Origin: a virus
Virus record (IMG/VR): IMGVR_UViG_3300009488_000018
Coordinates: 32,001 to 96,000 of that record
DNA length: 64,000 nucleotides
Direction: 5' to 3' (one strand)
The translations under genes were made by a program, and so were the position numbers. Below the pieces are notes generated by a model. That model searched no databases, was not told the origin of the DNA, and saw only the letters and a program-made list of their open reading frames with translations. Below, one piece after another: positions 625 through 48,976 of this stretch. Position 1 is the stretch's first letter; the number at the start of each line of letters is the position of its first letter.

Positions 625-2532
625 TTAGAAAGCAGCTGTTCCCATTCCGCCCATTCCACCCATGCCTTCTTCTTCTTTCTTCTTCTCTGGATCTAACTCT
701 TTCTCAATTTTACTACTAATTTCATACTTTTTAACTTCTTCCCAATCAACTTGTGACAGATATTTTTTCTTAGAATATTCTCGAGGAATTCCAATTCTTT
801 CAAGCGTCTCAACTAAACTTGCTAACTCACCCATATATCTTGCTTCACGTTCATATTGAAGTGACCGAGGAACTGGTAAAGCTATATTAACAACGTCAAG
901 GATTGTTAGTGCTTCCTCTGGATTAGTTAAATCAAATACTTTCTCAATCAATTCATTAATCTGGTGTGTAAAATACTTTTGGTGACCAATTATCGTTCTA
1001 GCAAACAAAACATTTTCTTCGGTTAAAGCAGCTTTATTTGAAAGATTTTCTTCAATATTAATAAAACTTGGAGGAACACCTAAACTAGCAGTTAATTGGT
1101 CTCTCATAAATTTGAGTTCGTCAACCTTAGACCTAATGTCCACATTTCCTTCATTAAATGTTGAAATATCAACAAAAGCTTTACCATCTTTCTGAGGAAT
1201 ATAAACATCTTCGAAAGTTGTAATCATACTAGGAATTGTATCAACTGTTCCGAATGAATCAAGACTAACTTTTCTCTTTCTAAATTCTTCTTTCATCGCC
1301 TCAATTGCTTTCTTTGCGTCTCGTGGCAGTCCAACCTCAATTGCAATTTTTCTTTTCTCAGTCGAACGTGAAAGTCTCTGAATTGCTAAAGCAGTTTCTA
1401 ATGCGATTAAAACTTTCGCAGAAAATTGACCACTATCAAATATAGACTCACCATAAGGATAGTACTTAGTAGAAGGAACCATAAAATGGATAACTCGATC
1501 TGGTGGAACATACCTAACATTCATTGTATTATTAATATCTGTCTGTGAAAGCATTGCTTTAATTATATCTTTTAAGTCTTTAATTTCTTTAAACTCTTTC
1601 ATCTGTGGTAATTTTTTCTGTAAACTTTTAATAATTGACATACAGATATTATTAATTGGTTCGTCTTGTATTGATATTCCAGGAAAAAGTGTTATCTGTG
1701 GAAAAACTAGATAACCAAAACATAAAGGAAAAAGAGAACTTTGTAATTTTACTACAAATTTTGGCTCGTGAAATATTAATTTTATATCACTAAGGCTCAT
1801 TTTATCGTTTTCTTTTTCTTCTTTTTCTTTACTTGTTTCTTCAGACTCTGCAAAAGACGAATAGTCCATTGTTATCTCAAATTTCTCTTCTTTATTCAAT
1901 GGAACTTTTAGGACCTCTTTTTTTCCTTCTTCTATATCTTGACTAACATGTGTAAAATATTCAGCCTCAGTTAAAATTGATCTACTAGTTAAAGCAGTTT
2001 TTGGATCACCAATCTCACAGAAAAGGTCACCGAACTCAAGAGTGTTTCGAACTATTAAATTTAAATGTCTTTCAAGGTCTAATTGTTTTACTACTTCTTG
2101 AACAATTCTAACTTTCGATTCTGATGGTGCAGTCTCATCCTCTAAGAGGGTGGATGGTTTAATCTCTAACGAAATTTTTGATATATCATCTGGTGACAAA
2201 ATACTATCAGTTAAAACACTTAATGCTCTATAACAATAGTTTATATTTGATACTATTGCTTCATAGGTCTTATAACGTAGAAGTCTACCACCTTGGCCGA
2301 ATGCAGCAGGGGTAGAACCTTGTGTAAATAAACCACCAGAAGCAGCAACCTGTACATCTGTTGCACCTTTAGATATTAAACTTCGAACCAATTCAATATA
2401 ACCATTTCGACCAGACTGTGATTTATAAGCTACAATGTTCTTAACAGCTTGGTCTAGCTTTTTATCAATTTTTACTGTCGAAGTTCCAATGATACTAGTT
2501 TTTAGTTTTGAAAAAACATCTTTTAATGGCAT
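625..2532 (-). CDS. Portal (vertex) protein, T4 gp20-like
   Basis: gp20-like motifs RLSRSTEKRKIAIEVG, EDVYIPQKDG, DELKFMRDQLTASLGVP; 635 aa. Confidence 0.85.
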   Translation of the reverse strand: MPLKDVFSKLKTSIIGTSTVKIDKKLDQAVKNIVAYKSQSGRNGYIELVRSLISKGATDVQVAASGGLFTQGSTPAAFGQGGRLLRYKTYEAIVSNINYCYRALSVLTDSILSPDDISKISLEIKPSTLLEDETAPSESKVRIVQEVVKQLDLERHLNLIVRNTLEFGDLFCEIGDPKTALTSRSILTEAEYFTHVSQDIEEGKKEVLKVPLNKEEKFEITMDYSSFAESEETSKEKEEKENDKMSLSDIKLIFHEPKFVVKLQSSLFPLCFGYLVFPQITLFPGISIQDEPINNICMSIIKSLQKKLPQMKEFKEIKDLKDIIKAMLSQTDINNTMNVRYVPPDRVIHFMVPSTKYYPYGESIFDSGQFSAKVLIALETALAIQRLSRSTEKRKIAIEVGLPRDAKKAIEAMKEEFRKRKVSLDSFGTVDTIPSMITTFEDVYIPQKDGKAFVDISTFNEGNVDIRSKVDELKFMRDQLTASLGVPPSFINIEENLSNKAALTEENVLFARTIIGHQKYFTHQINELIEKVFDLTNPEEALTILDVVNIALPVPRSLQYEREARYMGELASLVETLERIGIPREYSKKKYLSQVDWEEVKKYEISSKIEKELDPEKKKEEEGMGGMGGMGTAAF

Positions 2533-2564
2533 CTATTTTTATCCTCAAGAAAAAGAGATAACAC

Positions 2565-2981
2565 TTATTCTCCTGTCTCCATTAAGTTTTCGATAGCGTC
2601 TTTACGTATCTCATCACCCTCATATTTAGTACTAAAAACTTCCATGAGATTAAAAAGAAAAGTGTCTTCATCACCATACAAGTTAGTAAACTCATTTGTA
2701 AGCATCGGTCCCATCAACTTTATAACAAGACTTGCGAAGTCCTTTGCGAATTCGTTAAACTGTTTATCATCTATTTTTGTTGCTTCTATTGAATAAATTA
2801 ACATTCTGTCTTTATGAATTATATCATAGGCTTTTTCTATAAAAAGACTCTGGACTCCAATATAAGTCTCAAAATTAATTACGTACTGAAGATTTTGTTC
2901 TTTCTTTCTAGGTATAAATTTTAGCAAACCAAAAAGGACAAGGACAATTAATGCTCCAAGTAATAATGCTTCCAAACCCAT
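2565..2981 (-). CDS. Hypothetical protein with N-terminal membrane anchor
   Basis: Hydrophobic N-terminal ~22 aa; contiguous with neighbouring genes. Confidence 0.6.
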   Translation of the reverse strand: MGLEALLLGALIVLVLFGLLKFIPRKKEQNLQYVINFETYIGVQSLFIEKAYDIIHKDRMLIYSIEATKIDDKQFNEFAKDFASLVIKLMGPMLTNEFTNLYGDEDTFLFNLMEVFSTKYEGDEIRKDAIENLMETGE

Positions 2982-3287
2982 CTAATCACCCTCTGTTATT
3001 ATGTCGACTTCTTCTTCGTTTTCGAGTTCAGTTGACTCAACTGGTTCTGACTTTTGATCTACAATATCTTCACTAGTTTTTTCTTCATTTACCAAAATTG
3101 ATATAACTTTATTTGGTCTCAAAACTACAGAACTAGAAGTAGTATGTAATATCGAAATATTCCCTAACTCTAATACTGCAGATAATTTCTTTATATAACT
3201 AGACAGGTCAGAATCATCTAAGTCAACAAGTTCTATATTACTAACGTTCTCTTGAAAGATTACTATTTTCTTCATTGTCTTCTCCAA
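2982..3287 (-). CDS. Hypothetical protein
   Basis: Tightly packed ORF in the minus-strand block. Confidence 0.55.
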   Translation of the reverse strand: MEKTMKKIVIFQENVSNIELVDLDDSDLSSYIKKLSAVLELGNISILHTTSSSVVLRPNKVISILVNEEKTSEDIVDQKSEPVESTELENEEEVDIITEGD

Positions 3288-3300
3288 AATTACTATCCGT

Positions 3301-3558
3301 CTAAAAACCTTCTAAAGTCGACTTCATTTCTAACTCTTCTATCAAGGGTTCTGTAACAACGCTAATTTCCTCTTTTAACTTATCTTCCCTAGTAGATAAC
3401 ACAATTGAGTAATCAATGACTTTAGAAGCAAATCTTACTTTAAATATATCCAATTCATCTTTAGTCATTTCTAACTCAACTGGCGACCTTACAACTCGAT
3501 TTCTGAAAAAGATCTTTTTTCCTGGTGTTCTAACCTTTACTATATAAAATTCTGACAT
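3301..3558 (-). CDS. Hypothetical protein
   Basis: AGGA RBS, packed ORF. Confidence 0.55.
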   Translation of the reverse strand: MSEFYIVKVRTPGKKIFFRNRVVRSPVELEMTKDELDIFKVRFASKVIDYSIVLSTREDKLKEEISVVTEPLIEELEMKSTLEGF

Positions 3559-19809: not shown

Positions 19810-19935
19810 CTACATTTTCTCCTTTCTATTTACTTTTTGTTCTACTTCTTTTCAAAAAAATCTCAGAGTTTATCTCTGTAAGATTATTTATTTGTTCATT
19901 AAAATAAAATAGTTTTCCAATGAAAACAAAACAAT

Positions 19936-19953
19936 TATATATATTAATTACTG
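19936..19953 (+). promoter_or_regulatory. Conserved TATATATATTAATTACTG motif
   Basis: Identical to the copy at 48558; heads the long plus-strand block. Confidence 0.65.
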
Positions 19954-20007
19954 AGTAAGGGTCGAGTTGTTTATTTTTTCAAATTTAAGTTTAAAGGAGG
20001 AACTCTC

Positions 20008-20538
20008 ATGGAAATGAAAGTGGTAGAAGGTATGAAAAAACTTAAGATTATTGAGAAAAAAATGAGGTCTAACTGCCAGAACATAACTAGGTATGCTAGT
20101 ATGGTAGATATAGAACGACCACTTTTTGAAACGGAAAAAAAACAAGTGGAAGAAGTTAAATCTCTCGTACAGTCTAATGTAGACCTAATGAAAGAAGCAT
20201 TAGGACTAAAGAAAAAGATTGAACAGACTAACCTAGAAACCACCGTTCAAATTGAAGGCGAGTCTTATACAATCAGTGACCTCCTTTTCATTCATCATAG
20301 AATGGGAGAACTAATGTTGAGTACATTCTACTCCATGAATGATACAGAAGGGCAGAAAAGACTGAGGAACTCTCCTTCAATAGAAGGAAGAACTCCACAA
20401 GTGGTTCGTATGTACAAAGAAGAAACAAGAAACGAAGGTCTTAAAAAATGGCAAAACCTTCTTGACAATATTACCATGCGTCTAGAGGTGATAAACGCCA
20501 CAACAAACCTGGTCGAGGATGAACCTCAACAAGAGTAA
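20008..20538 (+). CDS. Coiled-coil protein, DIP1984/septicolysin-like
   Basis: MKVVEGMKKL..., IEQTNLETTVQIEG.SYTISDLL, INATT pattern recalled for this family; not verified by search. Confidence 0.5.
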   Translation: MEMKVVEGMKKLKIIEKKMRSNCQNITRYASMVDIERPLFETEKKQVEEVKSLVQSNVDLMKEALGLKKKIEQTNLETTVQIEGESYTISDLLFIHHRMGELMLSTFYSMNDTEGQKRLRNSPSIEGRTPQVVRMYKEETRNEGLKKWQNLLDNITMRLEVINATTNLVEDEPQQE

Positions 20539-20550
20539 GAACAAAATACT

Positions 20551-20863
20551 AAAGGGGTTCGGTAGCGTAAAAATGGAAACTTTGGGAGCCCGCTAACTGG
20601 GACAATGTTAGAGTGAAATAATAAAGTAAATCTGATTCGACAACTTCGAATATTTTTTACTTCCATTATAACAATGGTGTTAAGACTCATGACATAAGGT
20701 TAAAGACTAAGACGATCTCCACGTCGATAAAGAACGGAGATGGTCAAGTTTAAAGACAAAAGTTTCAAGATACGCTAAGGTAAAACTTCTGCGGGAAAAA
20801 TCCAGACTAAGGTGTAGCCCTCTCAAGCAACCTATCACTTCTGGCTGTTATTTGGACCCTTTT
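20551..20863 (+). ncRNA. Candidate structured ncRNA (~310 nt)
   Basis: ORF-less; AAAGGGGTTC pairs with GGACCCTTTT at the far end; internal hairpins; periodic AAG units. Confidence 0.55.
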
Positions 20864-20942
20864 CTCAAAAAATCTTAAGTAACTCTACATTATATCTAAA
20901 AATTCCCAACCCAATGTCGTATCCTTCTCAAGGTTGGTCACA

Positions 20943-20977
20943 TGTTGTGAGGGTAAGACTATTTTACTCTCACAACA
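20943..20977 (+). terminator. Strong hairpin, possible terminator or processing site
   Basis: TGTTGTGAGGGTAA / TTACTCTCACAACA. Confidence 0.5.
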
Positions 20978-21022
20978 AACCTAATTCTTAGGAACTATTT
21001 TTTTCTTCTGGGAGACTGTTAT

Positions 21023-21098
21023 GGAGACTGTGGTGAAGAGGTTACCACGAAGGGCTGTGGCCCCTTTATACGCCAGTTCGAATCTGGTCAGTCTCCCC
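21023..21098 (+). tRNA. tRNA-His(GUG)
   Basis: 8-bp acceptor including G-1; loop CTGTGGC. Confidence 0.9.
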
Positions 21099-21127
21099 CT
21101 TTAGAAGCTATTTAAAGGAGGTTACTA

Positions 21128-21583
21128 ATGGTTTCGTTTGTAAATAAAGATATAACTACTATAACTGAAGGTATCATTTGTCATCAAGTTAATTGTCGCG
21201 GTGTTATGGGTGCGGGACTAGCTAAACAAATCAGGAATAAGTTTCCAAAAGCCTATGAAGATTATATACAACAATATAGAAATAATAAGCTTCAACTTGG
21301 CAATGTTATATTTACAACAATTAACACTTATCCATTCTTGGTTATAGCTAACTTATGCGGACAAGATGGATATGGAAGACAAGGAGTATTTACAATTTAT
21401 CAAGCCGTCAGACAATGTCTTTATAAAGTAGTAAATTACAAAAATTTCCTTGTGGGACCATATTTATTGCCAATATATATTCCAGATCATATGGGGTGTA
21501 CATTGGGTGGTGGAGACTGGAAAAAAATACTACAAATAATAGATAAAATAATACCAGATGCTATAATAACACAATATGGATAA
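21128..21583 (+). CDS. Macrodomain protein (ADP-ribose binding or hydrolase)
   Basis: ICHQVNCRGVMGAGLAKQI...MGCTLGGGDW. Confidence 0.88.
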   Translation: MVSFVNKDITTITEGIICHQVNCRGVMGAGLAKQIRNKFPKAYEDYIQQYRNNKLQLGNVIFTTINTYPFLVIANLCGQDGYGRQGVFTIYQAVRQCLYKVVNYKNFLVGPYLLPIYIPDHMGCTLGGGDWKKILQIIDKIIPDAIITQYG

Positions 21584-21601
21584 ATTGAGCGGAGGATAAA
21601 A

Positions 21602-22003
21602 GTGAAAATTTATAAGATACAATTTTATAGGTTTAATACTCGTGTTAAACCAATGATGGAAGCGAATGTTGATGTAGTGTTTAGAACTAATTTTCCCCCA
21701 GAGGAAGACGATTTGTTCAATGACGAGTTTCTCAATATAATGTGGAAAGAAATGTGGAAACAGAATCCTGGATGGCTGTTATGTCATGGGCCCTCAACAT
21801 TAGGATTTCATGGTTGGTCATCTGTTATGTGGAAAAGGGAGTCATTAGTGGAGGTTAAAATAGATGAAAGGGATATGCCAGAAGATCTGACAGGAGAAGG
21901 GAATATGCTTACCGCATTAACATTTCATCCACTACTTCCCTCTGATATAAGAACGGCATTAAAAAAAGCCTACGAGCGCGGATTGAGAGACAAAACAAAA
22001 TAA
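21602..22003 (+). CDS. Hypothetical protein
   Basis: GGAGG RBS before GTG. Confidence 0.55.
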   Translation: MKIYKIQFYRFNTRVKPMMEANVDVVFRTNFPPEEDDLFNDEFLNIMWKEMWKQNPGWLLCHGPSTLGFHGWSSVMWKRESLVEVKIDERDMPEDLTGEGNMLTALTFHPLLPSDIRTALKKAYERGLRDKTK

Positions 22004-22005
22004 CC

Positions 22006-22097
22006 GGAGAGGTTGACCACAGTGGGAACGCGTGGCCTGGTCTTGAAAACCAGTGGTCGTTAACAGCGGCTTCGGGGTTCGAATCCCCGTCTCTCCT
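22006..22097 (+). tRNA. tRNA-Ser(UGA)
   Basis: CTGGT-CTTGAAA-ACCAG, long variable arm. Confidence 0.85.
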
Positions 22098-22369
22098 TCT
22101 AATATCAAACAAAAGAGGTAATAAAGTGGGAACGACCGGAGAATTACATAAAGAATTATTCAAGATGAATATAAAGTTGGTTAAAGTACATCCATTCTAT
22201 GAAACCTTCAAAGACGAACTTAGAGACATCTTAAGGAAATGTTTAACATATGAAAATAAATTTATAGCGACAAATTGTTTTCTTTCTGACAAAATTGATG
22301 AGCTAGAAAGAATAATGAAAGGATCTGGAAAATATCTTCATTAATTTTAATAAAAGGAATTATTGAACT

Positions 22370-23053
22370 ATGATTTTAGCAGTAGGCGACATCCACAGTG
22401 AGTTCAAACACTTAAATTCTCTAATCAGTGAGAAACAACCATCAATAATTCTTCAAGTTGGTGACTTCGGATACTGGCCAAAAGACAAGAAAAGTCAGAA
22501 AATAAAAAATAAAGATACTATAATCTACTTTTGTGACGGAAATCATGAAGACCATGAAAGTTTGAAGAACCTCGAAAACAACGAAATACAACAGAACATA
22601 TTTTATATGAGAAGAGGTTCTACTTTAACTCTACCGGATGGTCGAACTGTTTTATTTATGGGAGGTGCTTTCTCTCACGATTGGAGATATAAAGAATTTG
22701 GCAGTGATGAATGGAAATATAGAGAACCTGGAATTGACTGGTTTCCATTTATGGAACTAATTACTCAAGACGATATTAACAAAATTCCAAATATAAAAAT
22801 AGATATTGTTATTAGTCATACTGCTCCAGAAGAATTCTTCATGCCACCAAGAGACGGAGGATTAAAAGTTAAAGATCCATCAAGAGAATGTTTATCTCAA
22901 ATATTAAAAAAGTATAAACCAAAAGAGTGGTACTTTGGTCACTATCACTACTTTAAATATGGTTTTGATTATGGATGTAAATGGACAGCATTATCATATT
23001 CCAGATCAAATAGTAGATGGTGGGTTGGTTTAGATTTATGCAGGGTCGAGTAG
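22370..23053 (+). CDS. Calcineurin-like metallophosphoesterase
   Basis: GDIH, GDFG, GNHE, SHTAP, GHYH. Confidence 0.9.
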   Translation: MILAVGDIHSEFKHLNSLISEKQPSIILQVGDFGYWPKDKKSQKIKNKDTIIYFCDGNHEDHESLKNLENNEIQQNIFYMRRGSTLTLPDGRTVLFMGGAFSHDWRYKEFGSDEWKYREPGIDWFPFMELITQDDINKIPNIKIDIVISHTAPEEFFMPPRDGGLKVKDPSRECLSQILKKYKPKEWYFGHYHYFKYGFDYGCKWTALSYSRSNSRWWVGLDLCRVE

Positions 23054-23121
23054 TGGTCTAGCTCAGTGGTTTCATATGCCACGGACATGTGTCTTCATGG
23101 GTTCGAATCCCATCCCTGCTA
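23039..23121 (+). tRNA. tRNA with CAU anticodon (Met/fMet-like), unusual long variable arm
   Basis: GTGGT-TTCATAT-GCCAC; U1:U72 mismatch; variable arm GGACATGTGTCTT. Confidence 0.8.
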
Positions 23122-23132
23122 CATTAACATTA

Positions 23133-23204
23133 GACGGTGTAACCGAAATGGATAGGTGACGGGTTGCAACCCCGTTTATGCAGGTTCAAGTCCTGTCACC
23201 GTCT
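23133..23204 (+). tRNA. tRNA-Cys(GCA)
   Basis: Anticodon GCA in a 7-nt loop, U73. Confidence 0.9.
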
Positions 23205-23209
23205 CTAAC

Positions 23210-23294
23210 GGGCGAGTCGATTAGTATGGTGACATCAGCGGACTGTAAATCCGTGGCCCCTGGCTTGTAGGTTCGAATCCTTCCTCGCCCACCA
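23210..23294 (+). tRNA. tRNA-Tyr(GUA)
   Basis: GCGGA-CTGTAAA-TCCGT, long variable arm, CCA. Confidence 0.92.
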
Positions 23295-23323
23295 AAATCA
23301 TTATAAAAGGGAAACAAGAACAT

Positions 23324-23692
23324 ATGGGAAAAGAATTGTTATTCTCTGTTACTGCAAAGGACTGTGATTGGGGTTACTATCGAGGAAGTGGTAAAGGAGG
23401 ACAAAAGAAAAACAAAACAAGTAACTGTGCTAGGTGTACCCATCGTGATAGTGGAGCAGTTGGGAAGTCAGAAAAAGGACGATCTAAAGAACACAATCGA
23501 AGAGAAGCTTTCCTCCATATGATCGAAACTAATAAATTTAAAGTATGGCACAGAGTTGAGATTGCAAGGAGACTTGGAACCCTTGCAAAGATAGAAGAAA
23601 AGGTCGATCAAGAAATGAAGAAAATTAAAGTAGAAGTTAAGTCCGAAGATGATAAATGGGTAGAATGGACAGACAATTTAGAATCTATTTAA
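23324..23692 (+). CDS. Single-domain GGQ peptidyl-tRNA hydrolase (release-factor domain 3; ArfB/PrfH-like)
   Basis: RGSGKGGQKKNKT...RS..HNR..A. Confidence 0.85.
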   Translation: MGKELLFSVTAKDCDWGYYRGSGKGGQKKNKTSNCARCTHRDSGAVGKSEKGRSKEHNRREAFLHMIETNKFKVWHRVEIARRLGTLAKIEEKVDQEMKKIKVEVKSEDDKWVEWTDNLESI

Positions 23693-23948
23693 AATAGAGA
23701 AATATGAAAGGGTAATAAAATGAACCCACAACAAATCTACCTTAAGAAGGAAAAACTACAAAAAAGCATCAAACTTTTATGTAGAAATTTTGAGAAAGAA
23801 ACAAACACAGTCGTTACAGAGATTACTAACCGGAATACCGATAACAATGGTTGTCTAGATAGTACTAAAGAAGTTTCCGTAATTTGTGAAGATGACTACT
23901 GCATTTATAAATGAGAATTGTCACAACCAAACTGAAAGGAGAATTGTT

Positions 23949-24587
23949 ATGAGAAGAATAACTCGTTCTTATTGGGGAAAAGGTCAAATAGAAGCAGTAC
24001 CTGAGGAGACAAAGACAGAAGATAAAGCGGAAGTATTAGTTAGAGAACCTTCTGTCTTAGAACAAGTAGATAACAGGATCTATTTCTATGCAGAAATAAA
24101 TCGTCAGAATATTTTAAAATTAAACAAAAGTTTACGACGGTTAAGTAATGATCTTATAACAACAAGCAATTTACAAGAGTTTAATATGTATCCACCTATA
24201 ATTCTACATATCAACACTTATGGTGGTAACCTTTTTGATGGACTAGCAGGACTGGATGAAATAACAAATTGTAAAGTAGAAGTCAGAACTATTGTAGATG
24301 GTTGTTGCGCAAGTTCAGGAACTTTCCTTAGTGTTGCTGGAAAGGAACGATTTATAAACAAACATGCTTTTATGCTTATCCACCAACTTTCTTCGTTCTT
24401 TTGGGGTCCATATAGTGAATTTCAAGACGAGAAGAAAAACTTAGATTGGTTGATGGACATGATAAAGGACGTCTACAAAGAATACACTAAGGTACCAGAG
24501 AAGACGATAGACGAGATTTTGAAACATGATTTATGGTTCGACGCAGAAACATGTCTGGAATACGGGCTAGTTGATAAAATTCTCTAA
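23949..24587 (+). CDS. ClpP-family protease subunit
   Basis: HINTYGG, CASSG (catalytic Ser), MLIHQ, DLWFDAETCLEYGLVDKI. Confidence 0.85.
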   Translation: MRRITRSYWGKGQIEAVPEETKTEDKAEVLVREPSVLEQVDNRIYFYAEINRQNILKLNKSLRRLSNDLITTSNLQEFNMYPPIILHINTYGGNLFDGLAGLDEITNCKVEVRTIVDGCCASSGTFLSVAGKERFINKHAFMLIHQLSSFFWGPYSEFQDEKKNLDWLMDMIKDVYKEYTKVPEKTIDEILKHDLWFDAETCLEYGLVDKIL

Positions 24588-25699: not shown

Positions 25700-25860
25700 T
25701 GTACTTGTTAGGTGCGTTATGTGATGGAGGTCTGGGTGGAAGACTGTAGTTATCCCAGTTCAGTGGAAAGGATACGGTCGTACGGAGGCATGGCTGGCTA
25801 CAGAGCAATCCTCCAGCGTCGAGGACGTATGGGCCATACATTTCGCGTCTAACAAGTACA
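25700..25860 (+). ncRNA. Candidate structured ncRNA (~160 nt)
   Basis: 17-bp terminal stem with G.U pairs; internal hairpins. Confidence 0.6.
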
Positions 25861-25952: not shown

Positions 25953-26106
25953 AGGTTGTTAGTTTGTTGATGACGATTATAGCAAAGATTAGTACGCACT
26001 ATAAGCATTCACTTGGTATGATATGGGACGACGTTCCCATGATAGGAATGCGGGAAGACGTTCCCAAGGTCAGTGAGAGACTGGCTTGTCGATGAACTAA
26101 CAATCT
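25953..26106 (+). ncRNA. Candidate structured ncRNA (~155 nt)
   Basis: 19-bp terminal stem with five G.U pairs; two GGGA-n-GACG-TTCCC hairpins. Confidence 0.6.
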
Positions 26107-40980: not shown

Positions 40981-43891
40981 AAACTTAGTGGACATAAAGT
41001 AGAGACGGGGAACTTTACAAAGGAGGTAGAATGAGACCAGGCGATAGAAAACAAAGATGGCAGAGTACATGTACCATTGAGGGAATAATATTATTCCTGA
41101 TTGGGTTGTTTTTTGCCTACTCTGGATTGATGGCTCCAAGAAACGGTTGGATCGTTTTATTAATAGCCTTGGGTGCATTATGGGGGTCAATGAAATCTTT
41201 TACTGATGCAAAACGCGGATGGAAGATGACGGATAAGCGCCCGCCTTGGGCTGATAGGCATGACGCTATAGACAGGGGCGATTTAACATTATATAAAAGA
41301 TACCCTCATTGGCGACCTAATATACAATCTAACAAAGTACTCAACTCCAAACCAACTAAAGCTGGCGGGGTTAATTAATTGTTAAGGAGAGTCTTATGAT
41401 TACACCATCAGAGAGAATTCAGGCAGTTAAAGAATGGAACGAGTCAGGGTTTCATGAGTTAACGTGTGGAATTGATTCCAACCATCCTCCACTCGTAGCG
41501 GCAGAAACTCCATTTGGCGTGTATCTCTTCTGTACAGCGAATAAATGTGGATATACTCAGCCATTTTGGAAAGTCCCAGCTGTGGTATGGTTATCGTTTT
41601 TTGAGCGACACGCCTCCCCACAAGTCACTCAAGATGAAGTAGACTCACCATGGTTTTGTATTGAATGTAAACATGATGGCAATACAGGCCCAAAGTGTGA
41701 CAATTGCCTTATGCCACGCCGATGATCTTAATTTGGGAGGCTGACAATGAAAAAAGCTATATGCAATCGTGTAGATCTTAAACATAAGAAATGCCAAATA
41801 ACTTCATGTTATCATTATAGCATACATGAATCAATAGGATGTGAAAAATGGCACGAATGTCATTACTACAAAGTGCCAGTTAGATGCTTTTATGTCTCCA
41901 GAAGAATATGGAGTGAAGAGAGAAGACTAGAGCAGCTTAGTTCAAATATTAGGACGAATTCTAAAGGAGACATTTATGAGTTTATATTATGCTGAAACAG
42001 GTCTTGGTTGTTGTATTAGAGAAGCAACCAGTTTAAAAAATGCAAGAAATATAATTCTTAGAGAGGTTGGTACATATAATGGTCCCAAAATTGTTCGTAA
42101 GGCCAGTAAAGATGATATAAATTGGGTTAATAGTATGGGTGGATATGTACCAAAAATTCACCCCCAACCAAGTACTTAACTCCAAACCAGCCAAAGCTGA
42201 TTAGTTTTTCGTTATGTTTCAAGGAGGATAAAATGAATGAACAACTTTATGAGCAAGCATCAGAGGCTATAGAAAAATTGTTCTCTGATAAATCTGTATC
42301 ACAAGAACAGGCAAGGGAAAATTTGGAATCACTCATTGGTGAAATCGAAATAATGCTTGAAAGTATGGAGGAAACCTAACAACGCGCTCAACTCACTGTT
42401 AGGATTCAAACCAAATAACAATAACGCAGTATCTTAAGTGTAGACAATCCAGTAGTTGTGAGGGTTAGCTCCACGTTAGATTGCTCTTTAAGGAGTTATT
42501 ATGAGTTGTAAAGAAGGATATAGGGGCGAATGTTGCTGTGAGTGTGAACATCAACTTAAAATCCATGTTTGCACTTGTGGAATCTGCCCCACCATAGAAG
42601 GATATATCTGTATTTTATCCCATGTCATAGATCATAACTATCATTGTACCTATAAGACGAATAAGCATGGTGCGTGTGAGTGTTTTATGTTGAGAAAGTA
42701 ATCGAACAAAACACTCAACCCAGACCCATAAATATCAAGCTGATGAGTTTTGTTATACAGAAAGGAGGAAAGAGATATGAGTTACTTTTGGTTTTCATTT
42801 TCTAAGAATGGGAAAAATCAGGGATGTATTAATGTTGAAGCTGATACATCAGAAATAGCAATGAAAAATGCGATAGAATTAAATATCGTACCAAAACATG
42901 ACGATGTCGAAACATACAAAATCGATGAACCAGAGATACCCATTAATGTTTTAGTGTCTCCAGAAGAAATGAAGCAGATGGAGTATGATTCAGTAAAATA
43001 TAAAAAAAACTCAACCTAAACCCATAAATATCAATTTTGTTATGCCGCTATGTATGGTGCAAGATCATACTCATCGGGGGCAGTAAACCTACGGGCTGCT
43101 GGCTGTCTATGGTGCCTGAGATGGAACCAGCTAGCGGCATAACAAATCGCTGAAGTCGGAATCGGGAATGCTATGGAGTAAGTGAAGAACCCGAGTGCAC
43201 TTGGGTTGCAGGTGACCGAGCCTGACGTTCCCGAATTTTCCTTAGCCCAACTGATTAGTTTAATGTTATACAAAAGGAGGAAAGATGAAGAAATGGCCAG
43301 AGGATGGTTCTACGGTACAGTTTGCAGAAATAGTTGAGTCCGTCAGAAAGGCAATACTCTTTGCATATAATATTAAAAGGAAAAACAGGAATAGAAGCAT
43401 ACCTTGGGATGGACTTGATATTGGAAATGATTCAAAAGCGACTTGCTTTTCTCCAGAGGAACAACTTCAACTAGAACATTTGCGTTATTCTGAAAATGAT
43501 CAAGGACGGGATGCTCTAGATGAAATACTAAGTATAGCTGTCCGATTAGGGATTGAACAAGGACAGAGGATTTTTAAAAAAGGTACAGAATATCAAATGA
43601 TGAAAATACGGTTGAACTTAATAGAAAATCTAACAAATCACTCAGTCCAACCGAACAGACCAACTGGTTAGTTTAACCGTTAACAATCCTTCTTCAGGAG
43701 ATTAATATGCAAATATGTAAATTTTGTCAAAAGTCCTATGATGTAAAAGAAACCAAAAGGGTTTTCGGTGATATGTGGTGGATATACATTTATTGCTCTG
43801 CACAATGTTATACAAAAGATCAGGTTGTTAACAAAACACCTAACTCAGACCATGCTAACCGTCCGTCCGGATGAACTCAGCTGCGTAAAAC

Positions 43892-48460: not shown

Positions 48461-48535
48461 TCCCCTGTAGCTTAGTCAGGTCAAAAGCAGAGGTCTCTAA
48501 AACCTTGGACGTGGGTTCAAATCCCACCAGGGGAT
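48461..48535 (+). tRNA. Amber suppressor tRNA (anticodon CUA)
   Basis: TCCCCTG/CAGGGGA acceptor, GAGGT-CTCTAAA-ACCTT anticodon arm, GTGGG-TTCAAAT-CCCAC T arm. Confidence 0.9.
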
Positions 48536-48637: not shown

Positions 48638-48976
48638 TGAGAAAAACAGAGTTGGTCGCTTGTAGTGACTCTTCAACCTTGCAGTGTATATGTAACGATC
48701 GCAAGAAATACCTGACGTTGGGGCATATATACTGTTTGAGAGAGAAACACCAATAAACAGTGATACCGGCTATGTTGTTAGCCCTAAACTGGCCGACGGC
48801 TGCTCGTGAATCCCAAAACCGGGACACGAACCGGGTCACTGCCAACAGGAGACTATCCTAGAACATTGTATTCGGACGTTCATCTTCGGACGAATATTTG
48901 GTCGGTGTTTGAAATAGTAAACGGTAGGTTTCTCTACTAACCAAAGTAGGGGGAAATCCGTTCTCTGTTTTTCTCA
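48638..48976 (+). ncRNA. Candidate large structured ncRNA (339 nt)
   Basis: 14-bp perfect terminal stem, several nested stems, raised GC, no plus-strand ORF. Confidence 0.65.

What the first reader, a model, noticed from the sequence alone, without database searches (positions are those of the whole stretch)
20008..20863. Coiled-coil gene followed by a ~310-nt structured RNA with periodic AAG units
Seen: an AGAACAAA motif at the stop codon, then an ORF-less region closed by a 10-bp end-to-end stem (20551-60/20854-63). Two runs of 6-7-nt units (TAAGAC TCATGAC ATAAGGT TAAAGAC TAAGAC at 20681-20713; TCAAGTT TAAAGAC AAAAGTT TCAAGAT..TAAGGT at 20744-20781) flank a hairpin (20711-20745). Inference: phased short repeats suggest binding by an oligomeric protein, as in TRAP. 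This could be a protein-RNA pair such as a type III toxin-antitoxin-like module or a scaffolded RNP with the adjacent DIP1984-like protein.
Basis: partly seen in the sequence, partly recalled or inferred. Interest (0 to 1): 0.72.

Follow-up and report, generated by a model that had tools for sequence, protein, structure and literature searches.

The report
Unannotated phage RNA with partner protein
A roughly 310-base, heavily knotted RNA carrying two rows of seven-base repeats sits directly behind a small helical protein gene in many large phages, including the classic phage T5, and neither part has a known function or a correct annotation.

Summary
Window 20554-20860 (+) encodes a structured RNA. 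It has a 14-bp closing helix, two H-type pseudoknots and a third long-range pairing. It also has two single-stranded arrays of about four U-N-A-A-G-N-N heptads each. On 46 distinct relatives, 84% of cells pair, against 70% in shuffles and 37-45% in slid controls, and 43 of 48 pairs show compensatory changes. No Rfam family matches it.

The RNA follows the 176-aa gene in 59 of 67 metagenomic loci that have enough downstream sequence. The protein has the DIP1984 (PDB 3kdq) fold and is predicted to dimerise. All 46 family members match PHROG 1491, which is labelled "tail fiber protein".

That protein family occurs in 730 cultured-phage records, including T5 (gene T5.085). All 11 records I inspected have an unannotated gap of 360-640 nt after the gene. 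The gaps I parsed show the same architecture.

The gene's own leader carries the same heptads next to its ribosome-binding site in 19 of 48 genes, against 7 of 200 control genes.

Best reading: a new phage RNA-protein particle in which protein dimers bind the heptads, and the leader copies give feedback control. Binding and expression have not been shown.

The parts
19978..20003 (+). Leader of the protein gene. It holds three heptad-like units (UUCAAAU UUAAGUU UAAAGGAGG), and the last one runs into the Shine-Dalgarno sequence.
   Evidence: two pattern matches here. The same feature occurs in 19 of 48 family leaders against 7 of 200 control leaders.
20008..20538 (+). Gene for a 176-aa helical protein. 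It matches PHROG 1491, has the DIP1984/3kdq fold and is a predicted homodimer.
20536..20545 (+). Stop codon plus the AGAACAAA motif.
   Evidence: Not enriched in the window. Seen at the stop codon in 6 of 46 relatives (my reading).
20554..20567 (+). P1, 5' strand of the closing helix (pairs with 20846-20860).
   Evidence: There are 14 pairs, 13 with compensatory changes and 94% of cells paired. The closing G20567-U20846 pair is G-U in 46 of 46 sequences.
20568..20580 (+). Junction UAAAAAUGGAAAC. The UAAA part is near-invariant.
20581..20588 (+). PK3, 5' strand (UUUGGGAG). It pairs with the apical loop of the 3' domain at 20820-20827.
   Evidence: own-sequence helix score 15.5 against 11.2 for cross-sequence pairs. 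helix 2 (5 of 6 pairs with compensatory change).
20589..20611 (+). PK1, an H-type pseudoknot. Stem 1 is CCCG 20589-92 with UGGG 20598-601. Stem 2 is CUAAC 20593-97 with GUUAG 20607-11.
   Evidence: helices 3 and 4 (9 of 9 pairs with compensatory change).
20612..20679 (+). Variable hairpin region. Its length and sequence differ between relatives.
20680..20714 (+). Heptad array 1. It has five U-N-A-A-G-N-N-like units, and the last overlaps PK2 stem 1.
20711..20741 (+). PK2, an H-type pseudoknot with an A-rich third loop (GAUAAAGAAC).
   Evidence: own 13.5 against cross 10.0. helices 5 and 6.
20742..20772 (+). Heptad array 2, four units.
20773..20801 (+). Variable stem, then the conserved A-rich junction GGGAAAAAU.
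   Evidence: AAA and C are invariant columns.
20802..20845 (+). 3' domain. The outer helix is CCAG 20802-05 with CUGG 20841-44. The inner helix is 20811-14 with 20836-39. The apical loop CUCUCAAG (20820-27) is the PK3 3' strand. C20845 is invariant.
   Evidence: helices 7-9..
20846..20860 (+). P1, 3' strand.
20861..20866 (+). U-rich tail after P1. It is a possible 3' end. In some relatives a tRNA follows instead.
   Evidence: tRNAs abut the RNA in L007 and L057.

Best explanation
Window 20554-20860 encodes a member of a previously undescribed class of phage structured RNA. It is made as the 3' part of the transcript of the upstream gene.

The RNA has a compact core of one closing helix and three pseudoknot-type pairings. 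This core holds out two single-stranded arrays of about four U-N-A-A-G-N-N heptads each.

The partner is the upstream 176-aa protein, which has the DIP1984 fold, matches PHROG 1491 and is probably a dimer. I propose that several dimers bind the heptads to form a defined RNA-protein particle. I also propose that surplus protein binds the two or three heptads next to the ribosome-binding site of its own mRNA and lowers its own translation. That is the same logic as ribosomal-protein feedback.

Shown here: the RNA's structure and conservation, the gene-RNA linkage, the heptads in both places, and the fold and predicted dimer.

Inferred: transcription, binding, feedback, and what the particle does. 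A role in translation or tRNA biology, or in countering host defence, is only a guess from the company it keeps.
For: (1) The structure is real.
- RNAalifold gives 30 pairs, 26 with compensatory changes.
- With the pseudoknots added there are 48 pairs. 84.2% of cells pair, against 70.0% in shuffles and 37-45% in slid controls. 43 of 48 pairs have changes on both sides. The covariation score is 0.445 against 0.201, and 0 of 500 shuffles reach it.
- Many G-U pairs fix the + strand as the RNA strand.

(2) The gene and the RNA are linked.
- nhmmer finds the RNA in 59 of 67 loci that have at least 260 nt after the gene.
- All 49 distinct RNA loci have the gene upstream on the same strand. No other gene family occurs in more than 8 of the 49.
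- No terminator-like site lies between gene and RNA on the + strand.

(3) The heptads are periodic and conserved.
- 77% of 291 spacings are 7-8 nt, against 13% in shuffled arrays.
- U is at -2 in 84% of units and A at +1 in 82%.
- Array 1 has 4 units in 33 of 46 sequences. Array 2 has 4-5 units in 38 of 46.
- The arrays are unpaired in the consensus structure.

(4) The same units lie in the gene's leader.
- Loose two-unit pattern: 19 of 48 family leaders against 7 of 200 control leaders with a Shine-Dalgarno sequence in the same loci (Fisher p 2.4e-10).
- Strict pattern: 8 of 48 against 2 of 200 (p 3.9e-5).
- In T5-type phages both the arrays and the leaders use U-N-A-A-A units.

(5) Protein.
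- AF2 mean pLDDT is 92.
- PDB 3kdq matches at Z 11.9, rmsd 5.6, 151 residues aligned.
- The homodimer model scores 0.72 against a best control of 0.00. That mark was reached by 20 of 30 proteins solved as pairs and 1 of 23 solved as single chains. The runs share at least 98% of contacts and the partner pLDDT is at least 87.

(6) Breadth.
- All 46 members match phrog_1491.
- HHalign against cultured-phage members gives 97.3% probability and E 2.7e-11.
- The family is in 730 cultured-phage records.
- 11 of 11 inspected records have an unannotated gap of 360-640 nt after the gene.
- An unbiased search for the best long-range helix recovers a P1 that sits beside the conserved GGC or GCUG junction in 9 of 11 gaps. 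The two misses are SSE121, cut off by the record's end, and Psa381.
- A 3' domain with the A-rich lead-in was parsed in 8 of the 9 gaps that were parsed. In My1 the script picked a different helix.
- The T5 RNA folds with a z-score of -5.69.
Against: - No expression data. No RNA sequencing run holding this sequence was listed, so the transcript, its ends and any processing are unproven.
- No binding test of any kind was possible.
- The protein is not basic. The median pI is 7.9 in the metagenomic set and 5.6 in the cultured set. It has no recognised RNA-binding domain.
- 8 of 67 loci with enough downstream sequence have the gene but no detectable RNA within 2 kb.
- The leader statistic counts related genes as if they were independent. 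More than half of the leaders (29 of 48) lack the pattern.
- Leader AAG units overlap the AAGGAG of the ribosome-binding site. Part of that signal could therefore come from strong ribosome-binding sites.
- The pseudoknot helices pair in only 62-66% of cells on the MAFFT columns. My structure-guided listings are better, but the PK1 script has no control.
- The architecture in cultured phages rests on 9-11 sequences parsed by script and by eye, not on a covariation test.
Confidence: 0.5

Rival explanations
1. Decoy or sponge for a host factor. The heptad arrays bind a conserved host single-strand RNA binder, such as ribosomal protein S1 or the 30S subunit, a cold-shock-domain protein or a nuclease. 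The neighbouring protein only helps to fold, protect or deliver the RNA.
For: The module occurs in phages of very different hosts, both Proteobacteria and Bacillota, while the unit stays similar. That fits a universal partner. The units resemble the A/U-rich sequences upstream of ribosome-binding sites. The protein is not basic.
Against: The only gene always next to the RNA is this protein (49 of 49 loci). Control leaders with Shine-Dalgarno sequences rarely carry the units (7 of 200). That argues against a general ribosome-binding signal.
Confidence: 0.2
2. Cis-acting 3' untranslated region only. The structure stabilises or terminates the mRNA of the upstream gene, or tunes its expression, and has no role as a separate particle.
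For: The RNA starts within about 50 nt of the end of the protein match in most loci. No terminator-like site lies between gene and RNA. P1 is often followed by a U-run.
Against: Three pseudoknot-type pairings, invariant junction bases and eight phased units are far more than a stabiliser needs. In L012, L047, L050 and L057 an ORF or a tRNA lies between gene and RNA. In L007 and L057 tRNAs abut the RNA, so tRNA processing would release it.
Confidence: 0.1
3. DNA-level element. The repeats are iterons of a replication origin or another protein-binding DNA site. The upstream protein is its DNA-binding initiator, which also binds repeats in its own promoter, as in iteron plasmids.
For: A gene, an adjacent array of direct repeats and further repeats upstream of the gene make up the layout of iteron replicons (recalled knowledge). 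The protein atlas lists 'Siphovirus Gp157 family' clusters as look-alikes (feature score 0.94, TM 0.71). In Streptococcus thermophilus phages Gp157 lies beside a noncoding origin-like element (passages read in PMC6356513).
Against: Invariant and frequent G-U pairs, and covariation in pseudoknots, show selection on the + strand RNA. A 7-bp period does not fit the turn of double-stranded DNA (inference). HHalign of the family against Sfi21 orf157 gives 0.2% probability. The Sfi21 noncoding region lies upstream of orf157 and I saw no resemblance to this RNA.
Confidence: 0.07
4. Catalytic or tRNA-handling particle. This would be a ribozyme or RNA scaffold acting on the phage's many tRNAs, in the manner of RNase P.
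For: The RNA lies in or beside tRNA clusters in the window and in L007, L013, L057, Hena1, Deep Blue and phiCDIF1296T. All 5 carrier genomes that were counted encode tRNAs: 4, 18, 1, 4 and 16. In phiCDIF1296T the single tRNA is next to the gene. The A-rich strand plus CCAG...CUGGC next to P1 recalls the P4 region of RNase P RNA (recalled, not tested).
Against: No RNase P or other Rfam model matches at E up to 10 in the window. None matches at E up to 1 in 12 relatives and 3 cultured phages. The order of the helices differs from RNase P. In T5, My1, pVp-1 and phiPsa381 no tRNA gene lies directly next to the module; the nearest one seen is more than 1 kb away.
Confidence: 0.08
5. Type III toxin-antitoxin-like pair. 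The protein is toxic and the repeat RNA neutralises it.
For: A protein gene lies next to a repeat-bearing RNA that may bind it.
Against: The fold is helical, not the ToxN/AbiQ endoribonuclease fold. There is no PADLOC match. The units are 7 nt inside a scaffold, not tandem units of about 36 nt. The module is carried by strictly lytic phages such as T5.
Confidence: 0.03

Closest known systems
Ribosomal-protein feedback (an rRNA binding site plus a mimic of it in the protein's own mRNA leader)
   Same: The proposed logic is the same. A structural RNA carries the main binding sites, and a few copies of the same motif sit at the ribosome-binding site of the protein's own gene.
   Different: The RNA and protein are unrelated to ribosomal components. 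The sites are short phased single-stranded repeats, not a folded mimic. Binding is untested.
TRAP with the trp leader, and HutP with the hut leader (Bacillus)
   Same: Phased short purine-rich triplets in single-stranded RNA are read by a symmetric oligomer. From memory, HutP sites have a 7-nt period and come in two sets.
   Different: The unit here is U-N-A-A-G with a 7-8 nt period, and there are 4+4 units held on a pseudoknotted scaffold. The protein is a helical dimer, not a TRAP or HutP ring. The RNA lies 3' of the gene and is not an attenuator.
CsrB/RsmZ-type sponge RNAs with CsrA
   Same: One RNA presents many copies of a short motif for a dimeric protein. The same motif lies at ribosome-binding sites of regulated mRNAs.
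   Different: There are no GGA motifs in hairpin loops. The protein fold is different. Here the gene and the RNA form one unit.
ToxIN-type (type III) toxin-antitoxin systems
   Same: A protein gene sits next to a repeat RNA.
   Different: See the membership test. The fold, repeat length, gene order and lifestyle of the carriers all differ.
GOLLD and ROOL, large ornate RNAs of phages
   Same: They are large, pseudoknotted phage RNAs of unknown function, often near tRNA genes (recalled).
   Different: No Rfam match to either. This RNA is smaller (about 300-385 nt), has phased repeats and has an obligate neighbouring protein gene.
tmRNA
   Same: A closing helix made from the two ends encloses several H-type pseudoknots, and the gene lies in a tRNA-rich phage region.
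   Different: ARAGORN finds no tmRNA. There is no T-arm, no tag reading frame and no Rfam match.
DIP1984 / DUF6847 proteins (PDB 3kdq)
   Same: The whole-chain fold is the same (Z 11.9; Foldseek E 4.9e-3).
   Different: Sequence scores lie below the curated cut-offs. Only 9 of 46 members touch DUF6847 at E up to 1. No function is known for either group.

Membership tests
Any Rfam 15 family (including tmRNA, RNase P, 6S, Y RNA, GOLLD, ROOL) | A covariance-model match at or near the gathering score. | tested here: not met
   No match overlaps 20551-20863 at E up to 10. There is none in the RNA of 12 relatives at E up to 1, nor in T5, My1 or vB_CsaP_009. Only tRNAs reach the gathering score in the window.
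tmRNA | A tRNA-like domain with a T-arm and a tag reading frame. | tested here: not met
   ARAGORN reports 30 tRNAs and no tmRNA.
TRAP-binding leader | 9-11 GAG/UAG triplets spaced by 2-3 nt (recalled definition). | tested here: not met
   77% of spacings are 7-8 nt, and the unit is U-N-A-A-G.
TRAP-binding leader | A TRAP (MtrB) protein is encoded. | tested here: not met
   Pfam gives no TRAP match for the neighbouring proteins.
Type III toxin-antitoxin (ToxIN, AbiQ, CptIN) | A toxin with the ToxN/AbiQ endoribonuclease fold. | tested here: not met
   The AF2 model is helical and matches 3kdq. Pfam and PADLOC give no match.
Type III toxin-antitoxin (ToxIN, AbiQ, CptIN) | Tandem RNA repeats of about 34-36 nt upstream of the toxin gene (recalled definition). 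| tested here: not met
   The repeats are 7-8 nt, lie 3' of the gene and are interrupted by a pseudoknot.
DIP1984 family (NCBIfam NF038048) / Pfam DUF6847 | A sequence score above the curated cut-off. | tested here: not met
   NF038048 scores 14.6 bits against a cut-off of 70. DUF6847 matches 9 of 46 members at E up to 1, best 2e-4.
DIP1984 family (NCBIfam NF038048) / Pfam DUF6847 | The fold of PDB 3kdq. | tested here: met
   VIA-align gives Z 11.9, rmsd 5.6 and 151 of 152 residues aligned, with the next row at 8.8. Foldseek probability is 1.00 and E 4.9e-3.
PHROG 1491 ('tail fiber protein') | A profile match. | tested here: met
   46 of 46 members match at E up to 0.001, best 9.7e-12. HHalign to 11 cultured members gives 97.3% probability over the first 100 residues. 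The name 'tail fiber' is untested, and I regard it as doubtful.
Siphovirus Gp157 (Pfam PF05565) | Sequence or profile similarity. | tested here: not met
   No Pfam match. HHalign against Sfi21 orf157 gives 0.2% probability. Only the atlas look-alike scores point there.
CsrB/RsmZ-type sponge | Repeated GGA motifs in hairpin loops and a CsrA partner (recalled definition). | tested here: not met
   The units are U-N-A-A-G in unpaired arrays. There is no CsrA match.

The most novel reading that the evidence does not exclude
T5 and hundreds of other large lytic phages, from enterobacterial T5-like and rV5-like phages to Bacillus phage G and uncultured jumbo phages, share an unrecognised ribonucleoprotein. 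It consists of a pseudoknotted RNA of 300-385 nt that displays 8-11 phased U-N-A-A-G units, loaded with dimers of a DIP1984-fold protein that also represses its own mRNA through the same units. It would be a new class of phage RNA-protein machine, conserved across hosts. It would act early in infection on a process common to all these hosts, for example translation, tRNA use or a widespread RNA-targeting defence.
Probability: 0.4. Interest if true: 0.9.

Novelty: categorically new. Interest (0 to 1): 0.82.

Why it matters
If the reading holds, one of the best-studied phages (T5) and at least 730 sequenced phages carry a conserved structured RNA and a partner protein that nobody has annotated. 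The RNA is labelled 'none' in most T5-like records, and the protein is called 'tail fiber protein' or 'hypothetical'.

Few non-coding RNAs of lytic phages have a known role. A 2024 review says the same (passages read in PMC10884466).

This module offers several things:
- a tractable model, T5 in E. coli K-12;
- a clear structure to solve;
- a simple motif to mutate;
- a testable feedback circuit.

It also gives the DIP1984/DUF6847 fold its first candidate ligand. Finally, it would correct a widespread annotation error.

Tried and rejected
- **Close-relative searches.** Nothing was found with the single protein, a 23-nt exact pattern or blastn of the RNA against cultured phages. Relatives came only through a protein profile.
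- **Expression.** No RNA holder was listed for window 19900-21200. I did not use read laying, because contigs of DNA runs cannot show RNA ends.
- **RNA without the protein.** A pattern scan of viral contigs gave 8 loci. Four were contigs already known, and each has both the RNA and the gene. The other four have neither by nhmmer or tblastn, so they are chance matches. The test is therefore uninformative.
- **nhmmer on cultured phages.** The metagenomic profile does not detect the RNA of T5, My1 or vB_CsaP_009. The link rests on protein homology plus shared architecture.
- **Siphovirus Gp157 / replication-origin lead.** It came from the atlas and is not supported by HHalign or by the Sfi21 sequence.
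- **AGAACAAA as a promoter-like motif.** It is not enriched.
- **RNase P-like P4, Y-RNA-like stem, T-loop or anticodon-loop mimicry of the units, pairing between the two arrays.** I considered these from memory or by eye. None is supported by a test, and the unit's variable positions do not fit array-array pairing.
- **Conserved neighbours.** Apart from the protein there are none.
- **Papers.** Ten searches found no description of this RNA or of T5.085. 'T5.085' occurs in 0 papers. I read passages only of PMC10690425, a 2026 bioRxiv preprint on DRT4, PMC6356513 and PMC10884466. The catalogue of 10,006 candidate viral RNAs (PMC10690425) lists its candidates in supplements that I could not open, so part of this RNA may be among them. 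Papers in subscription journals, including the older T5 stable-RNA literature, were not searchable.
Full report
**What is in the window.** The window is part of a 124-kb viral record judged about 40% complete. It is a large phage with 30 tRNA genes in the window. The ORF 20008-20538 (+) encodes 176 aa. No ORF of 60 aa or more lies on the + strand from 20539 to the tRNA-His gene at 21023. Folded alone, 20540-20880 is only mildly unusual, with a z-score of -2.43. The RNA is single-copy in the record.

**Known RNA families.** Rfam finds only tRNAs at gathering score in the window. Nothing overlaps 20551-20863 at E up to 10. ARAGORN finds no tmRNA.

**Relatives.**
- A protein search gave 46 homologues of 168-227 aa, none with a Pfam domain or an informative name; they are aligned as A1.
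- Profile-guided scans returned 16 viral loci, 57 metagenome loci and 3 contigs of metagenome-assembled genomes labelled Synergistaceae or Bacillota.
- nhmmer with a seed from 13 sequences, then an iterated profile, found the downstream RNA in 59 of the 73 viral and metagenome loci. Of the 14 without it, 6 end within 26 nt of the gene. The other 8 (L022, L023, L031, L033, L035, L066, L072, L073) have 589-2000 nt downstream and no match.
- So the RNA is present in 59 of 67 informative loci.
- Many loci are the same contig in two collections. There are 50 distinct RNA sequences including the window's. I aligned 46 of them as A2. I left out L014, which is near-identical to L013, and the truncated L026, L045 and L046.
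- The RNA begins within about 50 nt of the end of the protein match in most loci. In L012, L047, L050 and L057 an ORF or a tRNA intervenes.
- L075 also has the RNA, and L076 has its 5' part at the contig end.

**Structure.**
- RNAalifold on A2 predicts the closing helix P1, stem 1 of the central pseudoknot and a three-helix 3' domain. That is 30 pairs, 26 with compensatory changes.
- Structure-guided scripts add three pairings.
  - PK2: the loop of stem 1 pairs 8-12 nt downstream. Examples are AUCUCC/GGAGAU, AUGGCA/UGCCAU and GUCCCA/UGGGAU against GUCCUA/UAGGAU. The mean helix score is 13.5 within a sequence and 10.0 between sequences.
  - PK1: an H-type pseudoknot just after the 5' junction. 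Examples are CUAAC/GUUAG, UCAUAUU/AAUAUGA, GUCUAAA/UUUAGAC and UGUUCGA/UCGAACA. The script reports a pseudoknot in all 46 sequences and has no control. By my reading, about 36 of them are at the homologous place.
  - PK3: the strand just 5' of PK1 pairs with the apical loop of the 3' domain. Examples are GAUAAG/CUUAUC, AAUGAG/CUCAUU, UGUGAG/CUCACA and UGGAAAGA/UCUUUCCA. The score is 15.5 within a sequence and 11.2 between.
- On the MAFFT columns, the full 48-pair structure has 84.2% of cells paired, against 70.0% in shuffles and 37-45% in slid controls. 43 pairs have changes on both sides. The covariation score is 0.445 against 0.201, and 0 of 500 shuffles reach it.
- The pseudoknot helices pair in only 62-66% of cells there. 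I put this down to misalignment of gap-rich columns.
- Invariant or frequent G-U pairs (G-U in 46 of 46 sequences at the inner end of P1, U-G in 40 of 46 at another position) show that the + strand RNA is the selected molecule.

**The repeats.**
- The arrays are unpaired in the consensus structure.
- Units read U-N-A-A-G-N-N. U is at -2 in 84% of units, A at +1 in 82%, and the next U at +5 in 71%.
- Spacing is 7 nt (185 cases) or 8 nt (39 cases) in 77% of 291 cases, against 13% after shuffling.
- Array 1 has 4 units in 33 of 46 sequences. Array 2 has 4 or 5 units in 38 of 46.
- In one clade (for example L013, L057, L071) many units read A-C-G or A-U-G instead of A-A-G throughout the RNA. This looks like a concerted change.

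**The protein.**
- Pfam, NCBIfam and PADLOC give nothing above threshold.
- All 46 members match phrog_1491, 'tail fiber protein'.
- The AF2 model is confident (pLDDT 92) and consists of helical hairpins plus a beta hairpin.
- The only whole-chain match among solved structures is 3kdq, an uncharacterised Corynebacterium diphtheriae protein. Foldseek gives E 4.9e-3. VIA-align gives Z 11.9 against 8.8 or less for the other rows, which cover only residues 1-80.
- Viral models that match are uncharacterised proteins of about 200 aa from many phages.
- A two-copy model passes the test: 0.72 against a best control of 0.00. That mark was reached by 20 of 30 proteins solved as pairs and 1 of 23 solved as single chains. 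The runs agree in at least 98% of contacts, and the partner pLDDT is at least 87. Since 3kdq is a solved multi-chain crystal, the pass could owe something to memory.
- The protein is not basic.

**Cultured phages.**
- tblastn with the window protein gave only weak hits, to genes annotated 'tail fiber protein' in Pectobacterium phage My1 and Cronobacter phage vB_CsaP_009.
- The My1 protein finds 730 records, and 718 of them cover at least 80% of the query. They include T5-like, rV5-like, Bacillus (Deep Blue, phage G), Lactococcus, Clostridioides, Pseudomonas, Vibrio and Erwinia phages.
- HHalign of A1 against 11 of these proteins (alignment A3) gives 97.3% probability and E 2.7e-11 over the first 100 residues.
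- In all 11 records I opened, the gene is followed by an unannotated gap of 364 to 637 nt.
- An unbiased search for the best long-range helix in each gap returns a closing helix of 14-22 pairs enclosing 304-384 nt in 9 of 11 gaps. In seven of them the 3' strand directly follows GGC. In My1 and Hena1 the reported strand starts a few nucleotides after GAGCUG or GGCG. The exceptions are SSE121, cut off by the record's end, and Psa381, where the script picked another helix and I saw the expected one by eye.
- A second script, run on the 9 gaps with an assigned P1, lists further elements. An A-rich strand followed by a covarying 3'-domain helix (CCUAGA/UCUAGG, CCACUG/UAGUGG, CCUUG/CAAGG, CCCAG/CUGGG, CCAAG/CUUGG) appears in 8 of 9; in My1 the script picked a different helix. 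PK1 is clear in T5, My1, pVp-1 and phiCDIF1296T, and by my reading also in phage G and Hena1. PK3 is found by the script in T5, My1, vB_CsaP_009 and AM5, and by my eye in Hena1.
- These gaps hold 5-11 U-N-A-A-A-G-like units with a period of 7-8 nt, or wider spacing in Deep Blue.
- The T5 RNA (L080 3142-3498) folds at -97.3 kcal/mol with a z-score of -5.69.
- It has no Rfam match.
- It is held at 89% identity or more by 440 records. Most of the 60 rows listed show no annotation under the match.
- In NC_005859 the gene is T5.085, and the RNA lies in the unannotated stretch 43142-43504.

**Context.**
- Among 49 distinct RNA loci the protein gene is the only constant neighbour. The next most frequent family occurs in 8 loci.
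- tRNA genes often flank the module.
- Five carrier genomes have 4, 18, 1, 4 and 16 tRNA matches.

**The leader.**
- A window-wide pattern search for three phased units is not enriched overall (21 matches against 20.75 expected). However, its + strand hits cluster in the RNA (4 hits) and just upstream of the gene's start codon (2 hits).
- Printing 69 nt upstream of the start in 37 metagenomic and 11 cultured members shows two or three units abutting or overlapping the Shine-Dalgarno sequence in many of them.
- Two units spaced by 7-8 nt occur in 19 of 48 family leaders against 7 of 200 leaders of other SD-led ORFs in the same loci (p 2.4e-10). With a strict U-N-A-A-G pattern the counts are 8 of 48 against 2 of 200 (p 3.9e-5).
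- L013 was left out because its start was unclear.
- The family members are related, so the p-values overstate the case.

**Interpretation.** The RNA is real, strand-specific, ornate and tied to one protein gene across very distant phages. The same short motif is displayed eight or more times on the RNA and a few times at the gene's own ribosome-binding site. The protein probably dimerises. The simplest model is a ribonucleoprotein with feedback on the protein's own translation. The steps that remain inferred are transcription and processing, binding, stoichiometry and the biological target. The rivals are a host-factor decoy, a pure 3' UTR, a DNA-level origin, a tRNA-handling ribozyme and a type III toxin-antitoxin. 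They are weighed in their own sections.

**Novelty.** No Rfam family matches, the RNA is unannotated in hundreds of genomes, and nothing turned up in ten full-text searches. The limits of those searches are given under Tried and rejected. The scan had noted this same stretch once more from an overlapping window (e1-6163726). It had not noted this RNA on any other DNA.

Noticed in passing
window 48461-48535 (+): A tRNA with anticodon CUA, which ARAGORN labels 'tRNA-Pyl'. It reads the amber stop codon. The phage may suppress or reassign TAG in some genes.
   Followed up: no
L022 about 2520-3000, L023 about 470-950 and L035 about 2515-3000 (downstream of the protein homologue): In the three loci of one clade that lack the RNA, the gene is followed by two copies of another module. 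In it, a tRNA-like sequence is nested between conserved flanks (GGAGCAGUCA ... UGACUUACUGCUCC), followed by a further conserved structured stretch. It could be a permuted, intron-bearing or scaffolded tRNA.
   Followed up: no
window 21128-24587 (+): Between the tRNA genes lie a macro-domain protein (Pfam E 4.9e-8), a metallophosphatase-like ORF (22370-23053), an ORF with a GGQ motif like release-factor or ArfB domains (23324-23692) and a ClpP-like ORF (23886-24587). Only the macro domain was scanned. The other three are my reading of the translations.
   Followed up: partly
window 20931-20982 (+): A strong hairpin (UGUUGUGAGGG...CUCUCACAACA) lies between the RNA and tRNA-His. No U-run follows it.
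   Followed up: no
L080 (T5, AY692264.1) 2477-3274: This T5 record annotates an ORF (T5p083) on the strand opposite to the conserved gene that NC_005859 calls T5.085. It is probably a mis-call.
   Followed up: partly
L080 (T5) about 3171-3178, about 3382-3390 and about 3452-3459: In T5 the junction strand GCAUCUUAC can pair either with the 3'-domain loop (GUAAGAU) or with AAGAUGC at the end of the repeat array, which is the pairing the minimum-energy fold chose. This could be a switch between two conformations.
   Followed up: no
L081 (Erwinia phage Hena1) 2257-2442: Directly after the RNA gap come tRNA-Thr and a 108-nt gene annotated as a suppressor tRNA with anticodon UCA.
   Followed up: no
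window 25700-25860, 25953-26106 and 48638-48976; also about 3.5 kb before the window start: Earlier scan notes flag further candidate structured RNAs in this genome and a second gene-plus-periodic-RNA module built from pentamer arrays. I did not examine them.
   Followed up: no
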